From assembly GCA_022573095.1 (NCBI GenBank), contig JACZUR010000001.1, forward strand, positions 1-26,785: a stretch of 26,785 nucleotides of DNA, in the 5' to 3' direction. Shown one piece after another: positions 59-17,772 of this stretch (the first letter of the stretch is position 1; each line of letters begins with the position of its first letter). Position numbers and translations under genes: made by a program. The stretch comes from Gemmatimonadota bacterium. GTDB lineage: Bacteria; Gemmatimonadota; Gemmatimonadetes; Gemmatimonadales; GWC2-71-9. The notes beneath the pieces were generated by a model, which was not told the DNA's origin, ran no database searches, and saw only the letters and a list, made by a program, of their open reading frames with translations.

Positions 59-74
59 TGCATCCTTCGTGCCA
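59..74 (-). promoter_or_regulatory. Sigma-54 (-24/-12) promoter for the third prepilin gene
   Basis: Minus strand reads TGGCACGAAGGATGCA (GG-N10-GC; matches TGGCACG-N4-TTGC except one base). Correctly oriented just upstream of the prepilin ATG. Confidence 0.75.
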
Positions 75-2703: not shown

Positions 2704-3102
2704 TCAGGTCGAGCACATCACTGAACCCGCGCGGTCGGCTGGCGCCACGACGGCGGCCGTTCCAGTATAGATGGCGCAGGTCCTGGCAGTACTCGTATGC
2801 GAGCCTGTAGCACTCCAGCCAGACCCGCTCGCGGCACCGATCGTCATCGTAACGCCCTGCGACTCGTTGGCGCCGAGTGCCGTGAGACTGGTGGTGTAGG
2901 TGGTGTTGTCGCCGAAATAGCTCTCTTGCGCCGTCGCTAGGTTCCTGAGATCACCCCTGACCGCCGCGAGATGAGCCTTCTCTCTCGTAGTCGTAAACTT
3001 TGGGATCGCGATCGCCGCCAGAATGCCGATGATCACCACGACGATCAGCAGCTCGATAAGCGTAAAACCGTTCTTGCCAAGCGGAATGCGTCTTGCACTC
3101 AT
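2704..3102 (-). CDS. pilA: Type IVa pilin, second copy (pilA2), 132 aa
   Basis: MSARRIPLGKNG|FTLIELLIVVVIIGILAAIAIPKF with a C-terminal Cys pair (C97, C118 of the mature protein). Start reassigned from 3267 to the ATG at 3102, which has GAAGG upstream and gives a normal leader length. Confidence 0.92.
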   Translation of the reverse strand: MSARRIPLGKNGFTLIELLIVVVIIGILAAIAIPKFTTTREKAHLAAVRGDLRNLATAQESYFGDNTTYTTSLTALGANESQGVTMTIGAASGSGWSATGSHTSTARTCAIYTGTAAVVAPADRAGSVMCST

Positions 3103-3225
3103 AACCTTCGTCCGTGCCCGAAAAGCCGTAGATACCGTCGTCAGGCCAATTACAGACCTGTCTCCAAGAACCGCTGCTGTCAATAACCCGGGGAAAACAC
3201 GCCCGGAGACGCCTCGGATAAAGGC

Positions 3226-3265
3226 GGAAAGGGCGGCGAAGTGAAGCACCCCGCCGCCCCGTTCC
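3226..3265 (-). terminator. GC-rich hairpin, probable intrinsic terminator or attenuator between pilA1 and pilA2
   Basis: Minus strand GGGCGGCG...CGCCGCCC stem (3259-3252 pairs with 3238-3231; extendable via GGAA/TTCC), followed by TTTCCGCCTTT, an imperfect U-tract. Begins 18 bp after the pilA1 stop. Confidence 0.6.
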
Positions 3266-3282
3266 AACGCCCTATAGAGACG

Positions 3283-3663
3283 TTAGGTGGTGCACTTAAC
3301 CTCACCCTCGGTGTCAGCCGGAGGAACCGCTGCCTGGTTACCCAAGAAGATACCGCACGTCTTCGCGGTGGCGTTGTGCCCTGCAGTAGCACCCCAACCA
3401 CTACCAGTAGCTGCAGTGATCGTGATCGTGACGCCCTGCGATTCCGCGCCGTCAACAGCCGTCAGGCTGGTCGTGTACGTTACGTTGTCGGCGAAATACG
3501 ACTCCTCGGCCGTGGCCAGGTTCCGTAAATCCGACTTCATGGAGGCTAGGTAAGCCTTCTCACGAGTGTTGGAGAACTTCGGAATGGCGATTGCGGCCAA
3601 GATACCGATAATCACCACCACAATCAGAAGCTCAATTAGGGTGAAACCCTTGCGATTCAACAT
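3283..3663 (-). CDS. pilA: Type IVa major pilin (pilA1), 126 aa
   Basis: MLNRKG|FTLIELLIVVVIIGILAAIAIPKF, C-terminal Cys pair, strong RBS GGGGAGG, sigma-54 promoter upstream and hairpin downstream. Confidence 0.95.
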   Translation of the reverse strand: MLNRKGFTLIELLIVVVIIGILAAIAIPKFSNTREKAYLASMKSDLRNLATAEESYFADNVTYTTSLTAVDGAESQGVTITITAATGSGWGATAGHNATAKTCGIFLGNQAAVPPADTEGEVKCTT

Positions 3664-3756
3664 CTTTCCTCCCCTAGCAGTAAATAACCTACCGTCCCTC
3701 GAACCACCCGCATATACCGCGGGCTAGCAAATACCTCCGTTGGACTGGCTGAACAG

Positions 3757-3772
3757 TGCAATCTCCGTGCCT
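3757..3772 (-). promoter_or_regulatory. Sigma-54 (-24/-12) promoter of pilA1
   Basis: Minus strand reads AGGCACGGAGATTGCA (GG-N10-GC). Predicted TSS near 3746, giving a leader of about 80 nt. Fits the known RpoN/PilR control of pilA in Pseudomonas, Myxococcus and Geobacter. Confidence 0.8.
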
Positions 3773-3937
3773 GCATTCTACCGAGCGGGAGCTTGCGCGT
3801 AATCCGTTGGGTCGATTGATCTTACAAACGTTCCCTCGAATTCTTCGCTGCGCCAGCGTCACGGAAGGAAACCTCATTCTGCAATTGATCCGGCTAGACG
3901 CAAGACCTAGCGCCAAGCCACCGGTGATCAAGCAAGA

Positions 3938-3965
3938 GCGACACCACCGCGACATATTCGCGACA
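3938..3965 (-). repeat. Three TGTCGC direct repeats at 11-bp spacing (candidate activator binding sites)
   Basis: Plus-strand GCGACA at 3938, 3949 and 3960. Intergenic, about 165-195 bp upstream of the pilA1 -24 element. Confidence 0.6.
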
Positions 3966-3991: not shown

Positions 3992-5821
3992 CTACCAGCC
4001 ACACGAGGCACCTGCCTGGCGCTCTTCCTCCATGACGCTCTCGTAGAGATCCGAGCGCAAGGTGCGTACCAACCCCAGATTTTGACCCCACACAGCGCAG
4101 AAAGCCGGGTCAGTTCCCGTGCCCACCACGGCATTGAGCAGGAATCCCCATCTCTGTGTGGCTGAAACCGGCCTTCCCAGTAGCCATTCGGCTCTGGCGC
4201 GCGACAGTTGTTGTTTCCAGTCCGGCGCTCCTGTAATCGCCAACATATCCGCGTAAAGGAGCAGCGCTCCCGGCTCATCTGGAACCAGCGATAGCACACT
4301 CCGCGCCACCGCAAGAGCCGAGGCCGAATCTCCGTTGGACAGATGGACCCCCGCTAGTTGCAGGGCGAGGCGCGGGTTGCCTGGCTCGAGACCGAGGCTG
4401 CGTTCCGCCTCCCTGAGAGCAAGCTGATGGCGACCAAGCGAACTTGCCAGGGGAACCAACATCGGCGCGATCAGTGGCTCGTAGGGGAATATCGAAGCAG
4501 CCGTGACGTAGTGACCCAGTGCCGCAGTAGAGTCTCCGAGTTGTTCGAGCACTCTTGCAACTCGAATATGTGCTCGGAAGTTCTCGGGATGCTCTACTAG
4601 ATCCTCAACAATCACCGTGCGATTGTCTTTCCAGAACGGTGTGCGCGTAAAGGTTCTCACGCCGTAGGCGGTGCACAGAACAGCGACCGCCACAGCGGTG
4701 GCACGGAGGATCCGAGGGCTGTGGGCCCGCGTGATCACCCATCCCAGCGCGAGAGCGGGTGCAAGCGCGGCCAGATACAGTGTGCGTTCGGCAAGCGCTA
4801 CACCGGAGCTGAAGAACAGGTTGGACGTTGGAGCATAGCTGGCCACCGCAACGAGGACGCCAAATGTGATGGCCGGCGCTTTTTTCGCTACGATCACCGC
4901 CAGCACGACTACGGCCACCCCGAACACCACTGCCGCACCTGCGGCAATCCCGAGTTCCGTGCGTCGCGGTATCACCATCGGGTTGTAGTCGGCAGCTAGC
5001 TCGAATGGCCACACAAGCAGCCGCGTGACATCCCAGATCACAGGGAGAGCGGTGGCTAATCTTTCGGCCGCGTCGAGACCGCGCACGTTCGCGGCAATCG
5101 TGGATTCAACGAAACCACCGGCGATCGCTCTCCAAACGTAAAACCAACCAAGCGTTAACGCAGCGGCGTATATATACAGGCCAGCGCGTCGCGTGTTCGT
5201 CTTGCCGATATCGAGAAAGTGATCGAGCGCCAACACGAACACCGTAATCACACCAGCCTCTTTCGACAGCATCGCAAGCAGCGTGAACGCAATCGTCAGC
5301 ACCAACCACACCCCGGATCGGTTATGCTCATGGTGCCTATAACGGCGCGCGCTCAACACGGCAGCGAGTATCCATACGGTCACCAGTACCTCTGCTCTCC
5401 CTACCACATTGGCAACGGCCTCGACGTGCACGGGATGGACAGCGAACGTAACGCCGGCGGCGAGTGCTCCAAGCGGAGGAAACCAGCGCAGCACCACAAG
5501 TACGACAAGAATCGTGGCTACAGCGTGCATGATTGCGTTGGAAACGTGAAACCATGCAGGCGATCCGCCCGACAGCGTCCAGTCGATTCCGTAGGTGAGC
5601 ATTACAAACGGTCGGTACATTCCGGCGTTTACACCTGCCGATTCCGGCCAGTACGGCTCGAAAGCCGCATCCACGGCTGCGCCAATGGAGTGCGCGGCGG
5701 GATTTTCCGCCACGATAGGAGTGTCGTCCAGCGCCCAACCATTACGGAATGCCCCGGCGTAGATCACGAGAGCGACCAGGCCGGCTAGCAGAGCCGCTCT
5801 GAGAGGACCTAGTCGGGGCAT
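3992..5821 (-). CDS. TMTC-like (GT105/DUF1736-type) GT-C glycosyltransferase with C-terminal TPR region, ~609 aa
   Basis: Motifs in TMTC order: WALDDTPIV, MYRPFVMLTY, WFHVSN, FAVHPVHVEAVANVVGRAE, LSKEAG, LAADYNP, APTSNL, LAERTLYL, FWKDN, then TPR-like helices (ALREAERSLGLEPGNP). Start reassigned to the ATG at 5821, which overlaps the upstream stop by 13 bp. Confidence 0.85.
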   Translation of the reverse strand: MPRLGPLRAALLAGLVALVIYAGAFRNGWALDDTPIVAENPAAHSIGAAVDAAFEPYWPESAGVNAGMYRPFVMLTYGIDWTLSGGSPAWFHVSNAIMHAVATILVVLVVLRWFPPLGALAAGVTFAVHPVHVEAVANVVGRAEVLVTVWILAAVLSARRYRHHEHNRSGVWLVLTIAFTLLAMLSKEAGVITVFVLALDHFLDIGKTNTRRAGLYIYAAALTLGWFYVWRAIAGGFVESTIAANVRGLDAAERLATALPVIWDVTRLLVWPFELAADYNPMVIPRRTELGIAAGAAVVFGVAVVVLAVIVAKKAPAITFGVLVAVASYAPTSNLFFSSGVALAERTLYLAALAPALALGWVITRAHSPRILRATAVAVAVLCTAYGVRTFTRTPFWKDNRTVIVEDLVEHPENFRAHIRVARVLEQLGDSTAALGHYVTAASIFPYEPLIAPMLVPLASSLGRHQLALREAERSLGLEPGNPRLALQLAGVHLSNGDSASALAVARSVLSLVPDEPGALLLYADMLAITGAPDWKQQLSRARAEWLLGRPVSATQRWGFLLNAVVGTGTDPAFCAVWGQNLGLVRTLRSDLYESVMEEERQAGASCGW

Positions 5822-7314
5822 GTGAACCGATAGAGCTTGGGACCTTCCCGGACGCTGAACAATTGTTCGAGAGGAGATACTTCGGCTGTGCTGAGCGTCT
5901 GCAAAAGCCGAGCTGCAGGGGCGCCGGGACCTGACAAGGCGATGTGAGTTACTCCAGTTGCGCAATAGAAATGGACGCTCTCAGCTGGTGTCAGCGGAAT
6001 TTCGTCCCTTCCGTTCAAGCGACTGAGGTAACTTGGAACGGAAGACCTGCCCGTGTAGAGCGACAGCAACGCCTCATCCCCTCCTGCGATCACCGCGTCA
6101 CTAGGCAGTTCCTGCACAATTGACGATATAAGAAGCCGCAACGGCTGACTGATTCCCTCGGCGGTGGATGCAAACGCGCGGTTTCGCAGGGAGCTAATCT
6201 CCCTTGGTAGGAAGCCGATACCAATAACCAGGGCCGCCGCGCCAACCACTAGCTTCCAATATCTGTTCCGAGTCCAGAGATCGTGTAGAGCAACAGCCAT
6301 CAGCAGAAAAATCCACGGAAGCACCACCCACACGAACCGGTCCGGAGTATACGGCCAGACCGTTACTACGCTCGCATACAACCCAAGCGTAACGATCAAC
6401 GCCGGCAGTACGCGAAACGTTCTCGCCGCACCCCACACGATCAGCAATGAAACACACACGGCGGCAAGTGCCCACAGAGGCGTGGGGAGGGCTGGCAACA
6501 ACAATCGTGCGATCGGACTGAAAACTTGAAGACTTGCTCCACCAATGAACTGAATCAATCCCATCCCGCCCGAACCCTCTGAGTACGTACCGTACACCGA
6601 GGTCAGGCGCGGATCGAGTTCTCCAGAGTGGACGAGTAACCAGATTATCCACGGGAGAATCACGACAGTACCGGCTGCCAGCGAGACAAGACTCGAGCGG
6701 CGAGCACCACGGTACCAGAGCGAAATTGCAATGCCTAGTAGCCCGGCGAGCCCAAGGCTCCGCGTGAGAGTGGCCAATCCAGCTAGCAGCCCTGCGGCAA
6801 CCGCACGCTTCGTGGTGGCCTCACCTCCGTCGGCAATCAACAGAGAGCCGGAAAACAAGATGAGAAACAACGGCTCCGAGAATCGTACACCCACAATTGC
6901 CAGCAACGGGAAGGCGGCAAACGCCGCAACTAGGACGAGGCCGACGGAAAGTCCGGGTAGGGACAATCTCGCAACTGATCGAGCAATGACGAAAGCAGAC
7001 AGCCCATAGACCGCGGAGTCGAAGAGAGAGAAAAGCGCGAGGTTCGCCGGGAACGACGGCCAGACACGCCACAAGAAACTCAAAACGTACGGGTAGAGAA
7101 ACGGATAGCGGACTCCAGCCGGGTCCCCGGGAAGATGGCCGTACCTAAATCCCTCACCCTCGGCGAGAGACCTGGCGAGCGACAGATATATACCGTCGTC
7201 GTAGAAGACTCCGGCAAGGGCATCGGTCTGTGCCCAGAGTGCAATCGCGAAAACAACTAAGCCAAGTAGTCCCGGCCAAAGTCGCCGGACATCCTGCCAG
7301 ATCGTTATTCGCAT
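5809..7314 (-). CDS. GT-C-fold membrane glycosyltransferase (ArnT/PMT_2-like), 501 aa
   Basis: Acidic pair in the first external loop (VFYDDGIYLSLARSL), YPFLYP, SEPLF, LTRSLG, DRFVW. Many TM helices followed by a soluble C-terminal domain. 10-bp overlap with the upstream gene. Confidence 0.8.
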   Translation of the reverse strand: MRITIWQDVRRLWPGLLGLVVFAIALWAQTDALAGVFYDDGIYLSLARSLAEGEGFRYGHLPGDPAGVRYPFLYPYVLSFLWRVWPSFPANLALFSLFDSAVYGLSAFVIARSVARLSLPGLSVGLVLVAAFAAFPLLAIVGVRFSEPLFLILFSGSLLIADGGEATTKRAVAAGLLAGLATLTRSLGLAGLLGIAISLWYRGARRSSLVSLAAGTVVILPWIIWLLVHSGELDPRLTSVYGTYSEGSGGMGLIQFIGGASLQVFSPIARLLLPALPTPLWALAAVCVSLLIVWGAARTFRVLPALIVTLGLYASVVTVWPYTPDRFVWVVLPWIFLLMAVALHDLWTRNRYWKLVVGAAALVIGIGFLPREISSLRNRAFASTAEGISQPLRLLISSIVQELPSDAVIAGGDEALLSLYTGRSSVPSYLSRLNGRDEIPLTPAESVHFYCATGVTHIALSGPGAPAARLLQTLSTAEVSPLEQLFSVREGPKLYRFTCPD

Positions 7315-9116
7315 TGCAGATCCGCTATGCGCCGCTCAATCCTCAATGTGTCATTCAGCCCCGGATGTAGCTGCGCCGCACGCTCCATCGAGCGTAAGGC
7401 CTCTGGACAGTATCCAGCGTGAGCGGCTGCATCGGCAGTGAGATACCAGTACTGCCAGACACCGGGGAAACGCCACGTCAATTGACGGCGCAGTGTCATC
7501 GCTTTCAGATGTGTACCGCGCATGGACGCGATCTCCGCCAACAGAACCACAATTCGATGGTCCCTTCCGTGGAGATCAACGGCGGCGTTCGCCACTAACT
7601 CGGCAGAGTCTGGTTCACTCGCCCGAATGAAATTGCTCACGGAGTTCACGGCGTCATCCAATCTCGTAGGATCGATGCGAAACGAAGCAGCGTAGAACTG
7701 GCCGGCTTCAAGCCACCGTTCATCCTCTTCGAAGTAACTGGCCAGGTCGCTCCAGGCGTTCGAGAACAGAGGGTACGTGCCGATCGCCTGCCGCATGAGC
7801 TGCTCACCCCTTTCGCGATCGCCGGCATCGTATGCCAGGGCGCCGGCTACCCATATGCCTCTAAAGGATCCGGGGGCATCTCTTACCAGTTGCGGGAAGA
7901 ACACCGACGCATTCTTCCATACGGGGATGCGGTGGAGAGATCGGGCGAGACCAGCCCCAACAACTAATGCCACGACTGCCACCGATGCCCGCAGTCTCCT
8001 TGCCGAGGCCTGGGTCACTAGCCATCCGACCACTATCACAAATCCCACCGATGGCAGGTACATAGAGCGCTCCGCAAGCAGCACACCGCTTGGCACCAAG
8101 ACGTTCGATATGACCAGCAATGATCCTCCCATCCAGAGCAACCCGAACGTGACCTCGGGAAACCTCCTCGATGCCCGCACTCCGCCAATGAACGCGAGCA
8201 ACAGAATTACCACACCAAGGAGCAACTTTAGGGATAGTTCTGGCTCGCCGGAGAGGAAGTTGGGGGAGTAGTCCGCCGAAAGGTGTAGCGGAAACAGCAA
8301 CAGTCTGGCCCATTCAAATACTACCGGCGTCATCACTGTTACTCTGTCAACGAATCCAAGAGTGAAAACACCAGGCCCCGGATGGTCGCCTGCAAAGTCA
8401 CCTAGAATGAGCGACCTGAGTAACATCCACTCGGCGGCAACAACGAATGTGGCGATCAGCAGCGTTGCGTGACTTCGAACGCGCGAGGTTACGGCAACAC
8501 CAGATCGCCGCGCCTCCACCCAATCGACAACCAGCAGCAGTGCTGGTGCGCCGAGAGCTGACTCTTTTGAACCAAAGGCCAGCAGCAGGCACGCCAGCAC
8601 TCCGAACGACGTTAGCCATCGAATCAGGTTGGTAGTAGCGCGTACAGCAAGGCTTCCATCGATGCGGTAGAGAAGCGCGGCCGACACTACGAACAGGGTG
8701 GCCATTACGTCGGCCCTTCCGACCACATAGGAAACAGCTTCAACGTGCACGGGGTGGACGGCAAAGACCAGTGCCGCGGCGACCGCGCCGACTCTGGGCA
8801 ACACAGTACCACAAAGAACTAACACCAGGACTGAAGTCACCGCGTGCAAAAATACGTTGACTAGGTGAAAGTACCTGGGATCACCGTTGCTGACGGACCA
8901 GTCAAGCGCAAACGAGAGCTGCGTTACGGGCCTATATAGCGCGTCTGGCCACCAAGAGTCGGTCACAATAGACGCGAAGTTGCGCACCGAGTGAAGCTGC
9001 GTATTCCCCACGATGATGTGAACGTCGTCGTACACGAATTCGTGGCCGGCGCTGGTTGCGAACACCCCGACGGCCACTAACGCCACGATTACCCCGATAC
9101 CGACCGCAGGTCTCAC
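7305..9116 (-). CDS. TMTC-like (GT105/DUF1736-type) GT-C glycosyltransferase with C-terminal TPR region, 603 aa
   Basis: FVYDDVHII, LYRPVTQLSFALDW, FHLVNVFLH, FAVHPVHVEAVSYVVGRAD, SKESA, LSADYSP, LAERSMYLPSVG, VWKNA, then TPR-like helices. GTG start. Confidence 0.85.
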   Translation of the reverse strand: MRPAVGIGVIVALVAVGVFATSAGHEFVYDDVHIIVGNTQLHSVRNFASIVTDSWWPDALYRPVTQLSFALDWSVSNGDPRYFHLVNVFLHAVTSVLVLVLCGTVLPRVGAVAAALVFAVHPVHVEAVSYVVGRADVMATLFVVSAALLYRIDGSLAVRATTNLIRWLTSFGVLACLLLAFGSKESALGAPALLLVVDWVEARRSGVAVTSRVRSHATLLIATFVVAAEWMLLRSLILGDFAGDHPGPGVFTLGFVDRVTVMTPVVFEWARLLLFPLHLSADYSPNFLSGEPELSLKLLLGVVILLLAFIGGVRASRRFPEVTFGLLWMGGSLLVISNVLVPSGVLLAERSMYLPSVGFVIVVGWLVTQASARRLRASVAVVALVVGAGLARSLHRIPVWKNASVFFPQLVRDAPGSFRGIWVAGALAYDAGDRERGEQLMRQAIGTYPLFSNAWSDLASYFEEDERWLEAGQFYAASFRIDPTRLDDAVNSVSNFIRASEPDSAELVANAAVDLHGRDHRIVVLLAEIASMRGTHLKAMTLRRQLTWRFPGVWQYWYLTADAAAHAGYCPEALRSMERAAQLHPGLNDTLRIERRIADLQCE

Positions 9117-9157: not shown

Positions 9158-11146
9158 CTAATCGCGACTTCCCTCCCGTACCAGTTGCATGACCGGCATT
9201 GCGTTCGGATCGCTGGGAGGAGTGACAAGCCGCCAGACGGGCCACCCGGAGTAACGCTCCAACAACTCGACGTTCTGCTCAAACCGGTCACGTGCCCAGA
9301 CGATGCCTTCGGCGAGGTTGATCTCATTGCGCCAGCCGAGAGTTGGGTAAACTGTGAACCCCTCGAAGTCTCTGCGTAGTTCCAGCGCGCATTCCTCCGA
9401 GAGCGGCTGGTCAGGCCACAGCTTGAGCGTCGGATCAGGTGCACCCGGCACCTGGGGAGCGGCGACCGGGTTCTCCCGGACGAGCACCTCGAGCGCCACC
9501 GTGATCTCTTGCCGTGACTGCGTCGATCGGATCTCGTTTTCGGCGAACTCATGCAACTGGCACGCATCCAATGTCCTATACGCGTTCTCAATGAGGCTGT
9601 ACGGAGCCCCCAAGCTCCACAGCTTGCTTATCGTTCTGCTGCCCCAACTGACCGGAACCAGCACCAGAGCCTGAGAGACTGCCTGTTGCTCGAGTGTCTT
9701 TTCGGGGTGGAGCTTCAGGCGCGGTAAGGAGTCACGGTAGAACGCGAACCTAACCGGGAAAACCCCCACTGCACCCCAGACCAACACGACTGCAGCCAAT
9801 GCCGCTGCCGCGACATCCCAGCGGAGAAGGTGCGAGGATTTCAAGCGAGCGCGCACCCAGAGCCAGCGCCACGCTAATGCAGTACCGATCACGCCCCACG
9901 GAGCCATCGCATAGTAGAACCTGGGACCCGGGTGGAAACCCGAGTGCCAGTAGAAAAAGTACAGGAGCGGGGTTGTGACAACGCCCAGGCCGACTATCAG
10001 ATCACTGCGGCGTCCGTGACGCGAGGCGAAGGCCCACAAACCGAGCGGCAGCAGGGCGGGAATGGGCCATTCATAAAAATAGATGTGCAGCCGCCGAACT
10101 GCGGCAGACAAGTTCCCCAGCGCGATAAGAGGCGTAAACGGGTGCCCATAGGGATCTGTGTGAAATCCGATACCGTGCGCGGATCCCCACATAGTCGTGT
10201 ATCCCAGAGCGAGTGGATGCCCTAGTGTGACAGAGTTAAGGACTCCAAACGCCACTATGAGGGGCAGCCCCCCAATCACCATGAAACCAAGTTTTCTCCA
10301 GTGCCGGTGCATGGCCACCCACGCCATCACCGGGACGGCCGCCCCAATTGCGTCCAGAGGACGGGTCACTGCGACAACAGAGAGAGCGAAGCCCGCCAAA
10401 AGGAAGTGACGCCGACGTGGGAGCTTGGGAGCGAACAGCGCCGCCCAGGCCAGAAGGGAGAAAGCCACAGCACTCACGTGGTTCATATAGGTCGCGGACA
10501 TGAACACCACCCAAGCCGCCGAGGCCCATAGCAGCGCGGCCACCGTCGCCGTCTTGATACCGTAGAGACCGCGCGCTACAAAGTAAATGAGTATCGTGCT
10601 CAGACCGCCGAGCAAAGGATTGACCAACCATTCAAGGTCGAGCAGATATCCGACCGCCAGTAGCAGGCTCTGCCCGGGCGGGTACTGGGAGATCCAACCG
10701 GCGTCGGAGAGGAAGGTGTGGGTGAGCAGGAAGAACTCCGCCGGCTCTGGCGCCGGAGCCGCGATTCTACCCGCAGCGAAGATCTTGGCGTGGAACAGTT
10801 GTGCCATTTCATCTACGAGCTGCGGGCTGCGGGCGAACACCGCACTCGCGACCACGGCGGCGGCGATGGTCAAGGCAACCGCAAGGAAGAGTACCACCTT
10901 CACACCGTAGAATCCCGGCCAGTTCGGAGCGCGGAACCTGATGCTCAACCGACCACACAGCAGCGCGACAATGAGTACCACCGCTACACCAATTGCCGAG
11001 CTCGATGTATAGTCCCGCCAAGCCGGGCCCGTATCACGCGCCCCAACCCACTGTGCGATCGGTAAAAGGGGAACAAACAGGAGCAGTGTTCCCAAGGCAT
11101 ACCACACCCAGCGAGTTAAGCTCTTTCCCGCGCCTTTAATTCGCAT
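9158..11146 (-). CDS. GT-C-fold membrane glycosyltransferase (ArnT/PMT_2-like), paralogue B, 662 aa
   Basis: PQLVDEMA (DE pair in external loop), QYPP, TRPLDA, GPRFYY. Multi-TM core plus ~190-aa soluble C-terminal domain. Collinear with 11374..13362. No clear RBS at this ATG. Confidence 0.8.
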   Translation of the reverse strand: MRIKGAGKSLTRWVWYALGTLLLFVPLLPIAQWVGARDTGPAWRDYTSSSAIGVAVVLIVALLCGRLSIRFRAPNWPGFYGVKVVLFLAVALTIAAAVVASAVFARSPQLVDEMAQLFHAKIFAAGRIAAPAPEPAEFFLLTHTFLSDAGWISQYPPGQSLLLAVGYLLDLEWLVNPLLGGLSTILIYFVARGLYGIKTATVAALLWASAAWVVFMSATYMNHVSAVAFSLLAWAALFAPKLPRRRHFLLAGFALSVVAVTRPLDAIGAAVPVMAWVAMHRHWRKLGFMVIGGLPLIVAFGVLNSVTLGHPLALGYTTMWGSAHGIGFHTDPYGHPFTPLIALGNLSAAVRRLHIYFYEWPIPALLPLGLWAFASRHGRRSDLIVGLGVVTTPLLYFFYWHSGFHPGPRFYYAMAPWGVIGTALAWRWLWVRARLKSSHLLRWDVAAAALAAVVLVWGAVGVFPVRFAFYRDSLPRLKLHPEKTLEQQAVSQALVLVPVSWGSRTISKLWSLGAPYSLIENAYRTLDACQLHEFAENEIRSTQSRQEITVALEVLVRENPVAAPQVPGAPDPTLKLWPDQPLSEECALELRRDFEGFTVYPTLGWRNEINLAEGIVWARDRFEQNVELLERYSGWPVWRLVTPPSDPNAMPVMQLVREGSRD

Positions 11147-11373
11147 GTGAAAGCAACTAAAGAATCACAAGGGCCGCCTACACGTAGCCGTACTTGCGTT
11201 GCCATAGAGGGTCAGCGCATTCACAATCGCGCGCTGTACTCTCGGGGCTTTGGCCTTTCCACTCGATGTCCAGCTCGTCGAGGACGACGCGCTCGTCAAT
11301 GCGGTGACCGCCACAACTCGATAGCACAACCTTACGAATTCGCCAAATCAGAATCGGTACACTACGTGATCGC

Positions 11374-13362
11374 TCAACCACCCGCGCTTCCGGCTTCCAT
11401 TAGCTGCAGCACCGGAAGCGCGTTAGGTGCGTCCGTTGGGGGCGCGTAGCGCCAAATCGCCCAGCCGGGATATTTCTGCAACAACTCGTCGTTCTCTTCG
11501 AATCGGTCCCGTGCGAAAACAATTCCGTCGTTCAGTTCAACGTCGTTGCGCCATGCTAGATTGGGATAAAGCGTGAAACCTTCGAAATCTCTCTGTAACT
11601 GCACCTCACACGACGGTGAAAAGAACTGGCCTTCATGTATCTTGAGCGTTGGATCCGGAAAACCCGGCACTGCGACGGCCGCTACCGGATACTCGCCCAT
11701 TAGCGCCTCCAAATCCCTGCTGATCTCCGTCGGGGACTGCAAAAGGCGCGCGTCATCTTCTGCAAACTCATGCAGCGTGCATGCGTCCAGCCAGCGGTAC
11801 GCTCGTTCCACCAAACCCGGGATCACGCCCAAGCCCCACAGCTTCGCTATCGTCCGGCTGCCCCAGCTGACCGGAACGAGTACCACTGCCTGCGTAACTC
11901 CCAGTCCTCTCAATTCTTGTTCTGGATGGAGTTTCAGGCTGGGCAAAGCATCGCGGTATATCGCATACCGTATCGGGAACACAACCACCGCACCCCAAAT
12001 CAACACCGTAATGGCGCCCGCAGCGCTGGCCACGTCCCACCGGACCAGCCTGTGCGACGCCGCACGAGCGCGTTCCCATAACCACAGCCACGCCAGCGCC
12101 GTGCCGATAACCACCCACGGCACGAGCGCATAATAGAATCTGGGTCCTAGGAAAAAACCTGAATGCCAGTAGAAAAAATAAAGGAACGGGGTGATAAGAA
12201 TACCCGAACCCACGACTAGGTCGCTGACGCTTTTCCGCCGCGGAACGAGAGCCCACAGCCCGAGCGGAAGCAGCGCGGGGATCGGCCACTCAAACAGATA
12301 AATATGCAACCGCCGTACGGCCGTAGACAGGTTCGCGAGAGCTACCAGAGGAGTAAACGGCTCCCCGTACGGATCAGTGTAAAATCCTAGAGCATGCGAC
12401 GCGCCAAAGAGTCGAGTATAGCCCAGGGTGAACAGAGTGCCGTATGCGGCCTGGTTCACCGCCGCCCATGCTAGCATTACCGGCATGCCAGCAACTGCCA
12501 TCCAGGGCAGCTTCTTCCACAACTGAGGGCGGGCGGCTACCCACACGAGGATGGGAACGGCAGCAGCGACTGCATCTAGAGGCCGCGAGGCCGCTGCGAG
12601 TGAAAGCGCGAACCCGGCTAAGATGAAATGTCTGAGCCGAGGCGTCTGTGGAGCGAATAACGCGGCCCATGCGCCAAGGGAAAAGAAAGCACTGCTTACG
12701 TGACTCACGTACGTACCTGACATTATGACTACCCAACCTGCCGTCGCCCAAAGCAACGCGCTTACGGTCGCGGTCCTAACTCCGTAAAGGCCGCGCGCCG
12801 TCAGGTAGACGAGTACAGTACTGAGACCGCCGAGTACGGGGTTTACAAGCCACTCCGATCTCAGCAAGAACCCGACGGCCAGCAGGGCGCTTTGTACGGG
12901 AGGATAGTGCGAGACCCATCCCTGTTCGTTCACGAAAGTCCATGTGATCAAGAAAAACCCTGCCGGATCCGGAGGCGGGGCGACAACTCTGCCCGACGAG
13001 AATGTCTTGGCCGTGAACAGTAGCGCCATCTCGTCAACGAGCTGAGGATTCCGGGCGAAAGCCTCATTCATCACGAACACCGACGCCAGCGTTAGACCTA
13101 TTCCCAGCGCGACGGCAACCTTCCAGCCGTAAACACCGCGCCACGCGGGCGCTTTCAAAGGTGTGCTCACACGCCCAGCAAGAACCGCAATAGTTATCAC
13201 CACCGTGATACCTAGTGCCCATCCCGACAGATATCCGGCCCAGTCCGGACCGGGGTCCCCGGCTCCAATCCAAGCGGCGACGGGGAACGCCGGGACGGCC
13301 AGGATCACAGCCCCGACAGCGTACCACACCCAGTTATTGATCGTTTTTAGCAATTGTCTCAT
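11374..13362 (-). CDS. GT-C-fold membrane glycosyltransferase (ArnT/PMT_2-like), paralogue A, 662 aa
   Basis: [24 protein letters not shown]. Start overlaps the GT2 3' end by 29 bp. Confidence 0.8.
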
Positions 13363-14083
13363 TGCGACGGGAGAGGATGTTGAAGCGCACCAGATGCCAG
13401 AGAGCGGCTACACCATCTCGCCAGTCGATCTTCTTACCCTCGGCGTAAGTGCGTCCGCTGTAACTGATCGGAATTTCCCAGATGCGGGCCTCGGCCTGAG
13501 CGAGCCGGGCGGTTACTTCGATTTCAAAGCCGAACCTGTTCGACACGAGGTGCAGCGACTGCAGCACTTCCGCGCGGACCATCTTGTAGCAGGTTTCCAC
13601 GTCGGTGAGATTGAGATCCGTCAGCATGTTAGACAGCAGAGTGATGAACCTGTTTCCCAACGAGTGCCAGAAATACAGCACCCTTCGAGGACCACCGTGA
13701 AACCGTGATCCGTAGGTTGCGTCTGCATCGCCTCTGATGATAGGATCAAGAAGATGTGGGAACTCATGGGGATCGTACTCCAGGTCCGCATCCTGGACGA
13801 CTATGACGTCTCCGGTTGCGCTTTGGATTCCGCGGCGCAGAGCAGCCCCTTTCCCCAGATTGCGCTCCTGATGAAATACCTTATCCAGCAGCCCCTCTGC
13901 GAGTAATCCATCCAGCACCGAATCGGACCCGTCCGTAGATCCATCGTTGACCGCGATCACCTCCAGTTTAAGGGGAACCTCCCGCACCTTGTTAACAATC
14001 GCTCTAACCGTCGTTGCTTCGTTGTAGACCGGAATGATCACCGACAGAAGGAGATCACTGAATCCTTTGAGTTGATGCGTCAC
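13334..14083 (-). CDS. GT2 family, polyprenol-phosphate sugar (DPM/DPG-like) synthase, 249 aa
   Basis: [34 protein letters not shown] (DxD), [17 protein letters not shown] start overlaps the methyltransferase stop (GTGA), with AGGTG as RBS. Confidence 0.92.
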
Positions 14084-14775
14084 TGCTTTTCACCTACTGC
14101 AATTACGGACTGACCAACTCTCCATGGAATAAGTCGTTCCTGCCGAAACACCGGCACCAATGAGTCGTACAGCTTGAGTACCTTCACTGGAATCACTTTC
14201 TTTTTCAGAACTCTCCCCGTAAACCACCAGCCCAACATGCTACCCATGTTAAAGTATTCAAGATGAACGACTCGGAACCCGGTTTCAGCAAGAACCGTAC
14301 GGAGCGAACGTTTGGTGTATCGCCGAAAATGAGAAAGAGCAGCGTCCAGCGTTCCGAACAACCACTGAAAAGCGGGCACGAGGAGTACTAGTCGTCCGTC
14401 TTTTTCCAACAGCGATCGCATGGACGAAAGCGCGGCCCGGTCGTCCTCAATGTGCTCCAAGACGTTCACACAAAGTATCGACTGAAATCGGTCGCCAGTC
14501 AGCGTGGAGGGGACCTCGGGCAATATCATTTTCTCGAAGCGCACACCGCCTAGCTCGCCAAACTTGTCGCGGAGCAGTTCAAGGTATGCGTCATCAATAT
14601 CAGTCAGCACGACTCGTTCGCGTTCCACAAAGAACTGAGACAAGTTGCCTATACCAGAACCCACCTCCAGCACTGAATTCCCAAGCCAGGAATCAAACCT
14701 GCTGTACATCCAACGATTGAACGCGGGAGCGTCCGTCAGTCTTTCGAGCGTCGTGGCGCCAAGAGCGTCCTCCAC
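14080..14775 (-). CDS. Class I SAM-dependent methyltransferase, ~231 aa
   Basis: Motif [36 protein letters not shown]. Start reassigned to the GTG at 14775 ([13 protein letters not shown]), just after the pilR stop; the longer track start overlaps pilR. Confidence 0.85.
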
Positions 14776-14782
14776 CCGGATA

Positions 14783-16159
14783 TCAATCAGCGGAGTCGTC
14801 GCCAAAGCGCGACAGCTTACGATAGAGCGTTGACGGATCAATGCCGAGAACCTCGGCGGCCCGGGTCTTGTTACCGCTCTCGCGCTGAAGTACCCACATT
14901 ATGTACGCTTGCTCGACCGACTCTAGCGTTGGGTTATCTAACGGCCGATCGGACACAAACTGCTGCGACTTTCCGGCAGTGATGCGCTTCGGCAGCGCTG
15001 ATACAGCTAGTTCGTCCTCCTTAGCTAGCACGACGGCGTGTTCAAGAGCGTTTTCCAACTCCCGGACGTTGCCGGGCCAGTCGTAGCTGACAATCGCTTC
15101 AAGGGTTTCCTGCGCCAGCATTTTGGGACTCTCGTCTCGGCTCGCCGCAATCTTCTGCAGAGAAGCATCGACTAGCAGTGGGATATCCTCTGGGCGCTCG
15201 CTCAGCTTTGGCAGATGTATCGCAATGACATTGATTCGATAGAAGAGATCAGAGCGAAAACTGCCCCTTCTGATTTCTTCCTCTAGATCCCGGTTGGTAG
15301 CCGCGATGATACGCACGTCGACGGGGATCGGTTCGGTTCCTCCGACCGGCAGCACCTCCCGTTCCTGCAGTACGCGCAACAACTTCACTTGCGTCGCCGG
15401 TGTCGTCTCGCCGATTTCATCGAGGAAGAAGGTGCCACCGCGAGCGGCCGCAAACAGGCCCTGTTTGTCCCGCACGGCCCCGGTGAAAGAGCCCTTTAGG
15501 TGGCCAAACAATTCGGATTCCAGCAAGCTTTCTGGAAGGGCGCCGCAGTTGATCGAAAAGAAAGAGCCTTCGCTTCTTTGCGACAGCTCGTGGATGTACC
15601 GTGCAATAACTTCTTTCCCCGTACCGCTGGCACCTTGAAGTAGCACGGTGGATTCCGTGGGAGCCACCTGCCCTGCAAGTTTCATGACATCGAGAAACGG
15701 CTTCGACTTCCCGATGGGTTTGACGCTTACGGACCTTTCGCGCCGCCTTATTTCACTTTTGAGCTGTTTGTTCTCTGAGCGTAACCTGCGGTATTCGAGC
15801 GCGCGATTACAGATCGCGATCAGGTCGTCGTTTGAAAAAGGTTTCTGGATATAGTAGAAGGCACCCTGGTTAACCGCCTGGATTGCGCTCTGAAGCGTAG
15901 CCTGCGCCGTCATCAAGATCACGGGTGTTTCAGGATCTTGTTCGCGCGCTGACTCCAGAACGTCTAAACCGGTCACCTGAGGCATCCGGATATCGGTAAG
16001 CACGATATCCGGCGCTACCGTAGAGATCGCCGCGAGCCCGGCCTTGCCTCCCTGGGCGGTTTCAACCTGATATCCTGAATTCCTGAGAAGGATCTTGAGC
16101 GTATCTAGAATCCCGGCCTCGTCATCGATCACCAGGATCGTGGGGTTTAGCTGATTCAT
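14783..16159 (-). CDS. pilR: Sigma-54-dependent response regulator, PilR-like, 458 aa
   Basis: REC (LVIDDE, TDIRMP, YIQKPF), GASGTGKE, ELFGHLKGSFTGA, FLDEI, WPGNVRELEN, HTH (AAEVLGIDPSTLYRKL). Name rests on the pilB-T-C-S-R synteny. Confidence 0.88.
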   Translation of the reverse strand: MNQLNPTILVIDDEAGILDTLKILLRNSGYQVETAQGGKAGLAAISTVAPDIVLTDIRMPQVTGLDVLESAREQDPETPVILMTAQATLQSAIQAVNQGAFYYIQKPFSNDDLIAICNRALEYRRLRSENKQLKSEIRRRERSVSVKPIGKSKPFLDVMKLAGQVAPTESTVLLQGASGTGKEVIARYIHELSQRSEGSFFSINCGALPESLLESELFGHLKGSFTGAVRDKQGLFAAARGGTFFLDEIGETTPATQVKLLRVLQEREVLPVGGTEPIPVDVRIIAATNRDLEEEIRRGSFRSDLFYRINVIAIHLPKLSERPEDIPLLVDASLQKIAASRDESPKMLAQETLEAIVSYDWPGNVRELENALEHAVVLAKEDELAVSALPKRITAGKSQQFVSDRPLDNPTLESVEQAYIMWVLQRESGNKTRAAEVLGIDPSTLYRKLSRFGDDSAD

Positions 16160-17772
16160 GCCGCTTTCCCCGTGTTTCCGGACGACGGGAGTACAACAGT
16201 GAAGACGGTTCCCACACCTTGGTTTGATTCCACGTACACAACGCCCTGATGCGCATCAACGGCTCGCTGCACGATGGCGAGGCCGAGACCTGTGCCGCCG
16301 ACCCTTCCTGTCACGAATGGTTCAAAGAGACGGTTTAGTAGATCACTAGGTATCCCGGGTCCGGTATCGGACACCATTATGACGGCCGGTCCCTCGAAGG
16401 TAATTCCTCCGGGAATGTCACCGGGTTGTCCATGTCTTACCGTCACCGTTACTTTACCTCCTTCGCCGGCGGCCTGAATCGCGTTGAGCACGAGATTGAA
16501 CACGATGCTATGAATGAGATCCTCGTCTCCGTTTATCTCGACATCGTCACCTTCTATTGTAACCTGGGATCCGGAGCGGCAGTCGGGATGTTCTCCCGCC
16601 ATCCTCGCCGCTTCCGTTACCACGGTCAGTAAGTTCAAACTGACACGCTGAGTAACCCTTACTCTCGCAAAATCGAGAAACTCGGACAGCAAACCGCTCA
16701 GCCGATCACTTTCTCTCACCACCAGTTGGGTAAGAAATTTCTCATCCTCCCCAGTTTGCATCGATCGCGACAACTGCTCGACCGAAGAGCGAATCGAGGC
16801 GAGTGGGTTCTTGATCTCGTGTGCAAGCGAAGCCGACATTTCAGCCACGGCCTCTAGCCGTTCGTTCCTGAGTTTGAGGTCCTCAATGCGCTTGGATTCC
16901 GAGATGTCCGTGAAGATGGCGGACACATTACCCTCGCCGACGTTGATGCTCGTTGTCGTAAGACCGAAGGGAAAAACATCATCCCCCCGCTTGATCTCTG
17001 CTTCGAAGCGTCGTACACTCATCCCGTCGCGCTGAGTTAGGGAAAGTACGCGCGCCATTTCCGGAGCAACTTCGGCGAGCAAATCGTTTACTGATTCGCC
17101 AATCGCAGCTTCCGCATCAAGTCCAAGCAACTGCTCCGCCACCGGATTGAGGTAGGACAGCTTGCCGCTTCCGTCCATCGTGAGAATGCCACTGCGTAGG
17201 TTGTCGAGTATATCACTTGCCTCGAGCCGGAGTCTCTCGACCTCCTCTTCTAGTATCTGCCGTTCTGAAGCGACGGCGCGGACCTTGCTGGCAATCCAAC
17301 CCGCAGCAAGCGAAACAAGCACGAACAGCGCTAGCTGGAGCCACAGCGCCACAGAAAGGTCCGGCGGGTTGAACCAAAAGATCACGGCGAAGTAGAGGAC
17401 TCCTGCCAGTAGCGTGATCAAGAGACTAGAAGCGAACGGGAAGAGGAGGGAGCTCAGCGATATCACAAGGATATACAGAGGGGCGAAGTTGCTCGTAAAA
17501 CCGCCGGTTACGTGCACCACGGCGGTAACCAACGCGAGATCGAAGAGAGTCTGGACATAGAGGAACGTCTGGCCTGGCGCGACTCGCCTTACCTCCGTGT
17601 ACCAAGCCGATACGGCACTCACGCTTACGCTGAGCACGGCGGCAGACGCCACCATGACGAGTATGCCCGGTTCGACTTCCTTGAAGTAGAAGGCTGCCGC
17701 TACGTAGATACCGATCGCCACACATACGCGACCTATATAGGCAAGGCGAAGCAATGCCCTGACGTCGGGCAT
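16156..17772 (-). CDS. pilS: Sensor histidine kinase, PilS-like (multi-TM, PAS, HisKA, HATPase_c), 538 aa
   Basis: About six N-terminal TM helices (DLALVTAVVHVTGGFTSNFAPLY, typical of PilS), PAS-like GILTMDGSGKLSYLNPVAEQLLG, AHEIKNPL, NLVLNA, DTGPG, GGTGLGL. ATGA overlap with pilR. Confidence 0.87.
   Translation of the reverse strand: MPDVRALLRLAYIGRVCVAIGIYVAAAFYFKEVEPGILVMVASAAVLSVSVSAVSAWYTEVRRVAPGQTFLYVQTLFDLALVTAVVHVTGGFTSNFAPLYILVISLSSLLFPFASSLLITLLAGVLYFAVIFWFNPPDLSVALWLQLALFVLVSLAAGWIASKVRAVASERQILEEEVERLRLEASDILDNLRSGILTMDGSGKLSYLNPVAEQLLGLDAEAAIGESVNDLLAEVAPEMARVLSLTQRDGMSVRRFEAEIKRGDDVFPFGLTTTSINVGEGNVSAIFTDISESKRIEDLKLRNERLEAVAEMSASLAHEIKNPLASIRSSVEQLSRSMQTGEDEKFLTQLVVRESDRLSGLLSEFLDFARVRVTQRVSLNLLTVVTEAARMAGEHPDCRSGSQVTIEGDDVEINGDEDLIHSIVFNLVLNAIQAAGEGGKVTVTVRHGQPGDIPGGITFEGPAVIMVSDTGPGIPSDLLNRLFEPFVTGRVGGTGLGLAIVQRAVDAHQGVVYVESNQGVGTVFTVVLPSSGNTGKAA

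What the first reader, a model, noticed from the sequence alone, without database searches (positions are those of the whole stretch)
3992..9116. Two bacterial TMTC-like protein O-mannosyltransferase candidates next to pilins
Both 3992..5821 and 7305..9116 carry the ordered motif series DD, YRP, FHxxN, FAVHPVHxEAV...GRA(D/E), KE, (D)Y/W, AERxxYL, W, followed by TPRs (seen). That series and architecture characterise the eukaryotic TMTC1-4 cadherin O-mannosyltransferases (established). I know of no defined substrate for bacterial homologues. Their position directly upstream of Thr-rich pilins nominates pilin as substrate, with the TPRs as the recognition module (inference). Two enzymes and two pilins could imply one-to-one specificity or a heterodimer.
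Basis: partly seen in the sequence, partly recalled or inferred. Interest (0 to 1): 0.8.

Follow-up and report, generated by a model that had tools for sequence, protein, structure and literature searches.

The report
TMTC-fold pilin glycosyltransferase candidates (TfpW-like)
Two membrane sugar-transferases built like the animal TMTC enzymes sit just ahead of two pilus-subunit genes in an uncultured Gemmatimonadales bacterium and most likely sugar-coat those subunits. Pseudomonas already has a pilin-modifying enzyme of the same design (TfpW), so this is a new variant, not a new kind of system.

Summary
Genes M (7305-9116) and O (3992-5821), both on the minus strand, encode ~600-aa proteins. 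Each has an 11-helix GT-C membrane domain and a C-terminal TPR array.

An AlphaFold2 model of M (pLDDT 89) matches only TMTC1-4 at the top of Swiss-Prot (E 1e-19 to 1e-22, full length). The Pfam TMTC_DUF1736 model stays below its cut-off (13.5 of 27 bits), so I file them as TMTC-fold homologues, not as GT105 members.

Pilin as substrate is well supported by context but unproven. In 39 of 59 usable Gemmatimonadota loci a same-strand prepilin gene starts within 600 bp of the last such gene; about 0.6 are expected by chance. In a control phylum, 0 of 31 loci had a nearby prepilin.

P. aeruginosa TfpW is a GT-C/TPR enzyme encoded next to pilA that glycosylates pilin.

"Mannosyl" is unsupported, and strict one-enzyme-per-pilin pairing is not supported. 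The gene between M and O (N, 5809-7314) is a third GT-C enzyme. The complex prediction gave no verdict.

This scan has noted such pilin-linked GT-C/TPR genes before, on other DNA from about 184 genomes.

The parts
7305..9116 (-). Gene M: 603-aa GT-C glycosyltransferase of the TMTC fold. It has about 11 TM helices (residues 1-400) and a periplasmic TPR domain (403-599). Catalytic-type residues are D30, D31, K184, E185, D282, Y283, E349 and R350. Cys570 and Cys602 are conserved.
   Evidence: ORF and translation. TPR Pfam hits. Invariant residues. AF2 model, pLDDT 89. Top 14 Swiss-Prot fold hits are all TMTC1-4. The TM domain matches AglB, Pmt1/2, Pmt4, STT3 and ArnT at Z 18-22.
5809..7314 (-). 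Gene N: 501-aa GT-C glycosyltransferase without TPRs. It has an invariant FYDDG (D39, D40) in the first loop and a small alpha/beta C-terminal domain. It overlaps the end of M by 10 bp and the start of O by 13 bp. It is a likely glycan-extending enzyme.
   Evidence: No Pfham hit for the protein itself. 9 of 28 homologues hit PF09594 GT87, best E 3.9e-8. Invariant DD. AF2 pLDDT 90.7. Foldseek PDB hits are STT3/OST, DPY19, ArnT, AglB, ALG9, PimE and AftB.
3992..5821 (-). Gene O: 609-aa paralogue of M with the same motif series and a C-terminal TPR domain. It lies directly upstream of the pilin genes.
   Evidence: only two family members in the 80%-complete genome. (31% identity to M over 409 aa). 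Tree: the O clade has 14 members, 13 of them pilin-adjacent.
3757..3772 (-). Sigma-54-type promoter-like element AGGCACGGAGATTGCA, about 95 bp upstream of the pilin P start codon.
   Evidence: Pattern search, 1 mismatch to TGGCAC-N5-TTGCW. Sequence context. PilS/PilR (a sigma-54 activator) are encoded at 14783-17772. Function is inferred.
3283..3663 (-). Prepilin P: 6-aa leader MLNRKG, then a 120-aa mature pilin (14% Thr) containing GVTITITAAT. It is the proposed acceptor.
   Evidence: N_methyl Pfam hit and pilin NCBIfam hits. Composition.
3215..3275 (-). Strong RNA hairpin followed by a U-rich tract just after the pilin P stop codon. It is a likely terminator or attenuator between the two pilin genes.
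   Evidence: MFE -36.2 kcal/mol, z = -4.5, 0 of 200 shuffles as stable. The simple terminator scan did not flag it.
2704..3102 (-). Prepilin Q: start at the internal ATG (MSARRIPLGKNG leader), 120-aa mature pilin, 85/120 identical to P, 16% Thr.
13334..14083 (-). Gene J: 249-aa GT2, a polyprenyl-phosphate monosaccharide synthase-like enzyme (DPM1/GtrB/ArnC/AglJ type). It is the proposed maker of the lipid-linked sugar donor.
   Evidence: Pfam Glycos_transf_2, E 2e-35. The best NCBIfam hits are AglJ, PpgS, dolichyl-P-hexose transferase and ArnC, all below their cut-offs. A GT2 sits in the same position in relative L003.
9158..13362 (-). Genes L (9158-11146) and K (11374-13362): tandem 662-aa PMT_2-type GT-C paralogues upstream of M. 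With M, N and O they make five GT-C genes in a row between pilR and the pilins.
   Evidence: Pfam PMT_2 (28.3 bits for K, over the cut-off; 21.7 bits for L, under it) and the NCBIfam LA_3751/3752 putative glycosyltransferase family. Not studied further here.

Best explanation
M and O are inner-membrane GT-C glycosyltransferases of the TMTC fold. Each has about 11 transmembrane helices that carry the catalytic DD, KE, DY and ERxxY loops on the periplasmic face, followed by a periplasmic TPR domain.

The proposed mechanism is as follows. The GT2 enzyme J loads a monosaccharide onto polyprenyl phosphate in the cytoplasm. The lipid-sugar is flipped to the periplasmic side by a flippase that has not been identified. 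M and/or O then transfer the sugar to Ser/Thr hydroxyls of the membrane-anchored pilins P and Q before the pilus is assembled. The TPR domain holds the pilin head.

N, and perhaps K and L, are further GT-C enzymes that probably extend or diversify the glycan.

In function and layout this works like the P. aeruginosa TfpW system, with a different donor pathway. The fold, motifs, topology and conserved pilin linkage are shown here. The donor type, O-linkage, pilin as acceptor and the role of the TPR domain are inferred.
For: Fold:
- The AF2 model of M has pLDDT 89.
- The top 14 Swiss-Prot fold hits are TMTC1-4, at E 1e-19 to 1e-22 and TM up to 0.80.
- The TM domain matches solved GT-C_A enzymes AglB, Pmt1/2, Pmt4, STT3 and ArnT at Z 18-22.

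Catalytic motifs are invariant in 30 homologues and correspond to TMTC motifs M1, M3, M4 and M7 of PMC7801869.

Topology: 11 helices with the C-terminus outside, and two invariant Cys residues in the TPR domain.

Context in the window:
- The gene order is pilB-pilT-pilC-pilS-pilR, then a methyltransferase, the GT2, five GT-C genes, and pilin-pilin.
- M, N and O overlap one another.

Conserved linkage:
- L003 and L005 show pilS-pilR-(GT2-GT-C-)TPR-GT-C-pilin.
- In 39 of 59 GTDB loci with at least 1.2 kb downstream, a same-strand prepilin starts within 600 bp. The background is 8 prepilin motifs in 484 kb of upstream flanks.
- The linkage spans Gemmatimonadales and Longimicrobiales, at about 30-35% protein identity.
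- In another phylum (reached through a record titled 'Acidobacteria bacterium') the family is multi-copy, and 0 of 31 loci have a nearby prepilin. So the linkage is specific and the pilin detector is not over-calling.
- Pilin-linked genes are longer, with a median of 606 aa against 554 aa.

Precedent: TfpW has the same architecture, lies next to pilA and is required for pilin glycosylation.

Acceptor: the pilins are 14-16% Thr.
Against: - No biochemical or mass-spectrometric data exist for any Gemmatimonadota pilin.
- The complex prediction of M with mature pilin P scored 0.06 (mark 0.32).
- About a quarter of Gemmatimonadota family members are not pilin-linked, and no control-phylum locus is. 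The family as such is therefore not pilin-specific.
- No GtrA-type flippase was found in the 80%-complete genome.
- Homology to TfpW itself could not be tested.
- Kinship among the compared genomes inflates the synteny counts.
Confidence: 0.6

Rival explanations
1. M and O are general periplasmic or surface protein O-glycosyltransferases with many clients. The pilins are at most one substrate among many, and the location in the pilus locus reflects co-regulation.
For: The family occurs in 74 of 146 high-quality Gemmatimonadota genomes, with 1-5 copies each. Some clades are not pilin-linked. In the control phylum there are up to 9 copies per genome and none is next to a prepilin. Eukaryotic TMTCs serve a whole protein superfamily (PMC7801869).
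Against: Only two family members were found in this genome, and both sit in the pilin operon region. The O clade is pilin-adjacent in 13 of 14 members. Pilin-adjacent accessory genes in Pseudomonas are pilin-specific.
Confidence: 0.15
2. The acceptor is not a protein. M, N, O, K and L would build or decorate a lipid- or polysaccharide-linked glycan (ArnT-, Emb- or PimE-like) that is co-expressed with pili, for example an exopolysaccharide needed for pilus-dependent motility.
For: ArnT, PimE, AftB and Emb are among the structural matches for M and N. N-family members hit GT87. Five GT-C genes in a row resemble cell-envelope glycan assembly lines.
Against: TPR domains are protein-binding modules. 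The full-length best matches are protein O-mannosyltransferases. Minimal loci contain only pilS-pilR, one TPR-GT-C gene and the pilin, with no other glycan genes.
Confidence: 0.12
3. M and O act as N-oligosaccharyltransferase-like enzymes on the N-x-S/T sequons of the pilins.
For: AglB and STT3 are top solved-structure matches for the TM domain (Z 22 and 19). Each pilin has N-x-S/T sequons (sequences).
Against: The C-terminal domain is a TPR array, not the STT3/PglB/AglB periplasmic domain that carries WWDxG. Full-length matches are TMTCs. The donor gene is a monosaccharide-P-lipid synthase type, not a pathway for a pyrophosphate-linked oligosaccharide.
Confidence: 0.03
4. M and O are non-catalytic TPR scaffold proteins for pilus assembly (PilF/PilW-like), as some database names suggest.
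For: Some homologues are auto-named 'Tfp pilus assembly protein PilF' or 'TadD'. The TPR domains resemble PilW and PilF structures.
Against: All catalytic-type GT-C residues are invariant across 30 homologues. PilF and PilW are lipoproteins without a GT-C membrane domain.
Confidence: 0.03

Closest known systems
TfpW of Pseudomonas aeruginosa Pa5196 / PA7 (group IV pilin D-arabinofuranosyltransferase; bioRxiv 10.1101/2020.04.19.049825; Kus et al. 2008 as cited there)
   Same: [quoted passage not shown] It is encoded immediately next to the major pilin gene, conserved with pilA in several species, and uses a lipid-phosphate monosaccharide donor.
   Different: tfpW lies downstream of pilA, whereas these genes lie upstream, between pilR and the pilins. 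The TfpW donor pathway (DprE1/DprE2, GtrA-like) is replaced here by a GT2 synthase. Here two TPR enzymes plus three further GT-C enzymes are present. The phylum differs (Gemmatimonadota against Pseudomonadota). Sequence homology to TfpW could not be tested because no TfpW sequence was obtainable with these tools.
Animal TMTC1-4 protein O-mannosyltransferases (CAZy GT105; PMC7801869, PMC7001481)
   Same: They are the best full-length structural match (E 1e-19 to 1e-22). They share the architecture of 11 TM helices plus TPRs, and motifs DD, YRP, RxD/E, KE and ERxxY in the same loops. PMC7801869 already notes uncharacterised full-length prokaryotic homologues.
   Different: Sequence identity is only 17-22%. 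The Pfam TMTC_DUF1736 model is below its cut-off for both window proteins (13.5 bits against 27 for M; 10 of 30 relatives hit weakly). The mannose-contacting SHKS of motif M2 is missing, DW reads DY, and PxxP is not evident. The TPR domain is shorter. The donor lipid would be a bacterial polyprenyl phosphate rather than dolichyl phosphate. The proposed acceptor is pilin rather than cadherin.
PilO/TfpO, PglL and PglS pilin O-oligosaccharyltransferases (Wzy_C / O-antigen-ligase family)
   Same: They glycosylate pilin Ser/Thr in the periplasm, and tfpO is also encoded next to pilA.
   Different: The fold and family are unrelated. No Wzy_C domain is present in M or O. Those enzymes transfer a preassembled oligosaccharide en bloc from a pyrophosphate-linked lipid.

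Membership tests
TMTC / CAZy GT105 | N-terminal GT-C_A membrane domain (about 11 TM helices) followed by a lumenal/periplasmic TPR array | tested here: met
   AF2 model secondary structure. Pfam TPR hits. GT-C matches at Z 18-22.
TMTC / CAZy GT105 | TMTC1-4 are the closest structures over the full length, ahead of PMT, ArnT, OST and TMEM260 | tested here: met
   Swiss-Prot fold search: ranks 1-14 are all TMTC, at E 1e-19 to 1e-22. Rank 15 onward are TPR-only proteins at E above 1e-5. Both sides are predicted models.
TMTC / CAZy GT105 | Seven conserved motifs M1-M7 (DD, SHKSYRP, RxD, KE(T/Q)xxT, DW, PxxP, ERxxY; PMC7801869 Table 4) | tested here: inconclusive
   M1, M3 (RxD in M, RxE in O), the KE of M4, and M7 are present and invariant. 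M2 keeps only YRP. M5 reads DY. M6 is not evident.
TMTC / CAZy GT105 | Pfam TMTC_DUF1736 (PF08409) at or above the gathering score | tested here: not met
   No hit at E <= 0.01 for M or O. M scores 13.5 bits against a 27-bit cut-off, at the expected position (residues ~257-285). 10 of 30 relatives hit weakly, best E 0.0086.
TMTC / CAZy GT105 | Transfer of mannose from Dol-P-Man to Ser/Thr of a protein | not testable with these tools
   There are no biochemical data. The sugar identity is unsupported by sequence.
TfpW-type pilin glycosyltransferase | GT-C enzyme with a DDx motif in the first periplasmic loop and a periplasmic C-terminal TPR domain | tested here: met
   D30/D31 are invariant and the TPR domain spans 403-599. 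TfpW description.
TfpW-type pilin glycosylltransferase | Gene adjacent to the major pilin gene, with the adjacency conserved in relatives | tested here: met
   39 of 59 loci have a prepilin within 600 bp. The orientation differs: the enzyme gene is upstream of the pilin here.
TfpW-type pilin glycosyltransferase | Detectable sequence homology to TfpW (AAM52060.1) | not testable with these tools
   No TfpW sequence could be fetched.
TfpW-type pilin glycosyltransferase | Decaprenyl-P-D-arabinofuranose donor pathway (DprE1/DprE2, GtrA-like PsPA7_6247) | tested here: inconclusive
   The cluster carries a GT2 polyprenyl-P-sugar synthase instead. No GtrA family member was found in the 80%-complete genome. 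DprE1/E2 were not searched.
PglL/TfpO O-oligosaccharyltransferase | Wzy_C (O-antigen ligase) domain | tested here: not met
   No Wzy_C hit in M, N or O. One relative has a marginal Wzy_C_2 hit at E 0.01.
STT3/PglB/AglB N-oligosaccharyltransferase | C-terminal periplasmic domain with WWDxG after the GT-C membrane domain | tested here: not met
   The C-terminal domain is all-helical TPR. The similarity is limited to the TM domain.

The most novel reading that the evidence does not exclude
The TMTC fold would be, in origin, a bacterial pilin O-glycosyltransferase. The same enzyme design that mannosylates Thr on cadherin beta-strands in animals would recognise the TxTxT strand of type IV pilins through its TPR domain. 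In this locus five GT-C enzymes (K, L, M, N, O) would then form a purely periplasmic assembly line. That line would build an oligosaccharide stepwise on the pilin from lipid-phosphate monosaccharides, without any en bloc oligosaccharyltransferase.
Probability: 0.2. Interest if true: 0.7.

Novelty: new variant of a known kind. Interest (0 to 1): 0.4.

Why it matters
Bacterial full-length TMTC homologues are known to exist, but the TMTC literature treats them as uncharacterised (PMC7801869). The library searched here held no paper that links TMTC and pilin.

A phylum-wide, statistically strong linkage to pilin genes gives these enzymes a concrete and testable substrate. It also ties the animal cadherin O-mannosylation enzymes to the TfpW type of pilin glycosylation.

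Pilin glycosylation is known to shield pili from phages (bioRxiv 10.1101/150227, listed). The locus may therefore shape phage-host interactions in the soil-abundant Gemmatimonadota.

The gain is incremental. The design principle (GT-C + TPR next to pilA) is already established by TfpW, and this scan has met the same module repeatedly in other phyla.

Tried and rejected
- Complex prediction of M (with alignment) plus mature pilin P scored 0.06 against a mark of 0.32. This is 'no support, and no evidence against' and is not used either way.
- Sequence search of M against PDB chains found only TPR proteins and no solved TMTC.
- Foldseek of the whole M model against the PDB was swamped by TPR hits. 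The exhaustive VIA search was needed to see the GT-C matches.
- tblastn of the M catalytic domain against 72,556 plasmids found no match.
- No TfpW or TMTC sequence could be obtained for a direct profile comparison. No tool gave access to one.
- The first enzyme:pilin cross-tabulation miscounted genes because it ignored reading frames in this GC-rich DNA. The frame-aware count replaces it.
- One enzyme per pilin is rejected as a rule. Counts of 1:2, 1:3, 2:1, 2:3 and 3:2 all occur, although 2:2 is the commonest two-enzyme state (12 of 21).
- The simple terminator scan missed the hairpin after pilin P. Folding showed it.
- The 88-aa ORF at 3689-3955 lies between O and pilin P. It has no family hit and overlaps the promoter region, so it is treated as spurious.
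- The GtrA flippase family was not found in the genome, which is 80% complete.

Full report
**What is there**

The window is contig C37 of an ~80%-complete, 2.08-Mb Gemmatimonadales MAG. All genes run on the minus strand. In the direction of transcription they are:
- an SprA-like protein, an M28 peptidase and a ComEA-like HhH protein;
- pilB, pilT, pilC, pilS and pilR;
- a SAM methyltransferase (14080-14841);
- a GT2 (J, 13334-14083);
- two 662-aa PMT_2-type GT-C paralogues (K, 11374-13362; L, 9158-11146);
- M (7305-9116), N (5809-7314) and O (3992-5821);
- prepilin P (3283-3663) and prepilin Q (2704-3102);
- a second histidine kinase / sigma-54 regulator pair.

M, N and O overlap by 10 and 13 bp, so they form one translationally coupled unit. 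O starts at the ATG at 5821.

A sigma-54-type element lies at 3757-3772, about 95 bp before the pilin P start codon. A very stable hairpin follows the pilin P stop codon (-36.2 kcal/mol, z -4.5).

**Check of the observation**

It is far from chance. In an alignment of 30 homologues (as low as 27% identity to M), these M residues are invariant: D30/D31, R62/P63, F83/H84/N87, H121/P122/H124/V125/E126, G133, K184/E185, Y283/P285 and E349/R350/Y353.

Pfam finds only TPRs in M and O. M and O share 31% identity over the catalytic 409 residues, while their TPR domains do not align by BLASTP.

The two pilins have 120-aa mature forms that are 85/120 identical. They are 14-16% Thr, against 5.3% in the other window proteins.

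**Is it TMTC-like?**

An AlphaFold2 model of M (pLDDT 89, pTM 0.85) shows about 11 membrane helices and then an all-helical repeat domain at 403-599.

- Against Swiss-Prot AlphaFold models, the 14 best hits are TMTC1-4 of human, mouse, fly, frog and worm. They score E 1e-19 to 1e-22 and TM 0.63-0.80, cover residues 2-601, and are 17-22% identical. The next hits are TPR-only proteins at E above 1e-5.
- AFDB clusters and the ESM Atlas show the same fold in Gemmatimonadota, Acidobacteriota, Nitrospirota, Omnitrophota and arthropod TMTCs.
- No TMTC structure is solved. The membrane domain matches AglB, Pmt1/2, Pmt4, STT3 and ArnT at Z 18-22.

Compared with the seven TMTC motifs of Eisenhaber et al. 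(PMC7801869):
- DD, RxD/E, KE and ERxxY are kept.
- SHKSYRP is reduced to YRP, which loses the residues modelled to contact mannose.
- DW reads DY.
- PxxP is not evident.

Pfam TMTC_DUF1736 is below its cut-off. M scores 13.5 bits against 27, at the correct position. Ten of 30 relatives hit weakly.

My conclusion is that these are homologues of the TMTC fold family. I do not file them as GT105 members, and nothing supports mannose specifically.

**The gene in between**

N has no Pfam hit itself. However, 9 of 28 homologues hit GT87, and an FYDDG motif is invariant. Its model (pLDDT 90.7) matches STT3, DPY19, ArnT, ALG9, PimE and AftB.

The finding's span therefore holds three GT-C enzymes. The island between pilR and the pilins holds five, plus a polyprenyl-phosphate sugar synthase-type GT2.

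**Is pilin the substrate?**

The evidence is comparative.

- Homologues on long contigs show the orders pilS-pilR-X-GT2-GT-C-M-like-O-like-pilin-pilin-...-pilMNOPQ, and the minimal pilS-pilR-enzyme-pilin.
- Among 80 GTDB species-representative loci, nearly all Gemmatimonadota, 59 have at least 1.2 kb downstream of the last TPR-GT-C gene. In 39 of these a same-strand prepilin gene begins within 600 bp, and in 44 within 3 kb.
- The upstream flanks hold 8 prepilin motifs in 484 kb, so about 0.6 loci would be expected by chance.
- On a tree of the catalytic domains, M and O fall in separate well-supported clades. The O clade is pilin-adjacent in 13 of 14 members. Linkage is found across Gemmatimonadales and Longimicrobiales, and a few clades are unlinked.
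- Linked genes are longer, with a median of 606 aa against 554 aa.
- In the phylum, 74 of 146 high-quality genomes carry the family.

As a control I searched the phylum of a record titled 'Acidobacteria bacterium'. There, 39 of 81 genomes carry up to 9 copies each, but 0 of 31 loci have a nearby prepilin. One of those loci, L091, comes from the unpublished genome G025; without it the count is 0 of 30.

The linkage is therefore a specific, conserved trait of the Gemmatimonadota subfamilies and not of the fold as a whole. The compared genomes are related, so the counts overstate independence.

**Known precedent**

TfpW of P. aeruginosa Pa5196/PA7 is a 646-aa GT-C enzyme. It has 11 predicted TM helices, a DDx motif in periplasmic loop 1 and a periplasmic TPR domain. 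It is encoded immediately next to pilA and is required for pilin D-arabinofuranosylation. Homologues accompany pilA in several genera (bioRxiv 10.1101/2020.04.19.049825).

I could not obtain a TfpW sequence, so direct homology is untested.

In the accessible literature no paper links TMTC with pilin. PMC7801869 notes uncharacterised prokaryotic full-length homologues.

Earlier notes of this scan describe the same pilin-linked GT-C/TPR module in about 184 other genomes, including Omnitrophota, Syntrophales and Proteobacteria. Their follow-ups also name TfpW as the closest known system. I reached that reading independently before looking. I treat those notes as agreement, not as evidence.

- One enzyme per pilin is not a rule. 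Frame-aware counts in 47 complete loci give enzyme:pilin states of 1:0 (13), 1:1 (7), 1:2 (2), 1:3 (1), 2:0 (2), 2:1 (4), 2:2 (12), 2:3 (3) and 3:2 (3).
- A heterodimer, as in yeast Pmt1-Pmt2, remains possible for the conserved M/O pair. Single-enzyme loci show that it is not required for the family.
- The complex prediction of M with pilin P gave no verdict.

**Mechanism and verdict**

The most likely course (0.6) is this:
1. J makes a polyprenyl-P-monosaccharide.
2. After flipping, M and O transfer the sugar to pilin Ser/Thr in the periplasm, with the diverged TPR domains selecting sites or pilins.
3. N, K and L extend the glycan.

The rivals are a broader protein clientele (0.15), a non-protein acceptor (0.12), N-linked transfer (0.03) and a non-catalytic scaffold (0.03).

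This is a new variant of a known kind (TfpW-like pilin glycosylation by a TMTC-fold enzyme). It is solid and testable, but not unprecedented.

Noticed in passing
window 5809-7314 (-): The 501-aa gene between the two TPR enzymes is itself a GT-C glycosyltransferase. It has an invariant FYDDG, GT87 hits in relatives, and an OST/DPY19/ArnT-like fold with a small alpha/beta C-terminal domain. The finding did not mention it.
   Followed up: yes
window 9158-13362 (-): Two tandem 662-aa PMT_2-type GT-C paralogues lie upstream of M, with weak hits to the Leptospira LA_3751/3752 putative glycosyltransferase family. With M, N and O they make five GT-C genes in a row.
   Followed up: partly
window 3757-3772 (-) and 59-74 (-): There are two sigma-54-type promoter-like elements. 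One is ~95 bp upstream of pilin P. The other (TGGCACGAAGGATGCA) lies downstream of the second sigma-54 regulator gene at the window edge. Matches at up to 2 mismatches number 21, against 11.6 expected.
   Followed up: partly
window 3215-3275 (-): A very stable hairpin (-36.2 kcal/mol, z -4.5) with a U-rich tail lies between the two pilin genes. This suggests pilin P is expressed far above pilin Q.
   Followed up: partly
M residues 570 and 602 (window ~7311-7409): Two cysteines in the last TPR helices are invariant in 30 homologues. This is consistent with a periplasmic disulfide that closes the C-terminus.
   Followed up: no
L003/L004 4181-7231: In a related Gemmatimonadaceae locus, a 1016-aa protein with a spermine-synthase-like domain sits where this window has the 253-aa SAM methyltransferase, just before the GT2 gene.
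   Followed up: no
G002, G005, G043 and others (control phylum; loci L087-L117): The same TMTC-fold family is expanded to as many as 9 copies per genome, often in tandem, in the phylum of a record titled 'Acidobacteria bacterium'. None of the 31 sampled loci has a nearby prepilin, so their substrates are unknown. L091 is from the unpublished genome G025.
   Followed up: partly
window 3689-3955 (-): The 88-aa ORF between O and pilin P has no family hit and overlaps the promoter region. It is probably not a gene.
   Followed up: partly
whole genome G000: No GtrA-family flippase (PF04138) was found in the 80%-complete assembly. How the lipid-linked sugar would reach the periplasm is open.
   Followed up: partly
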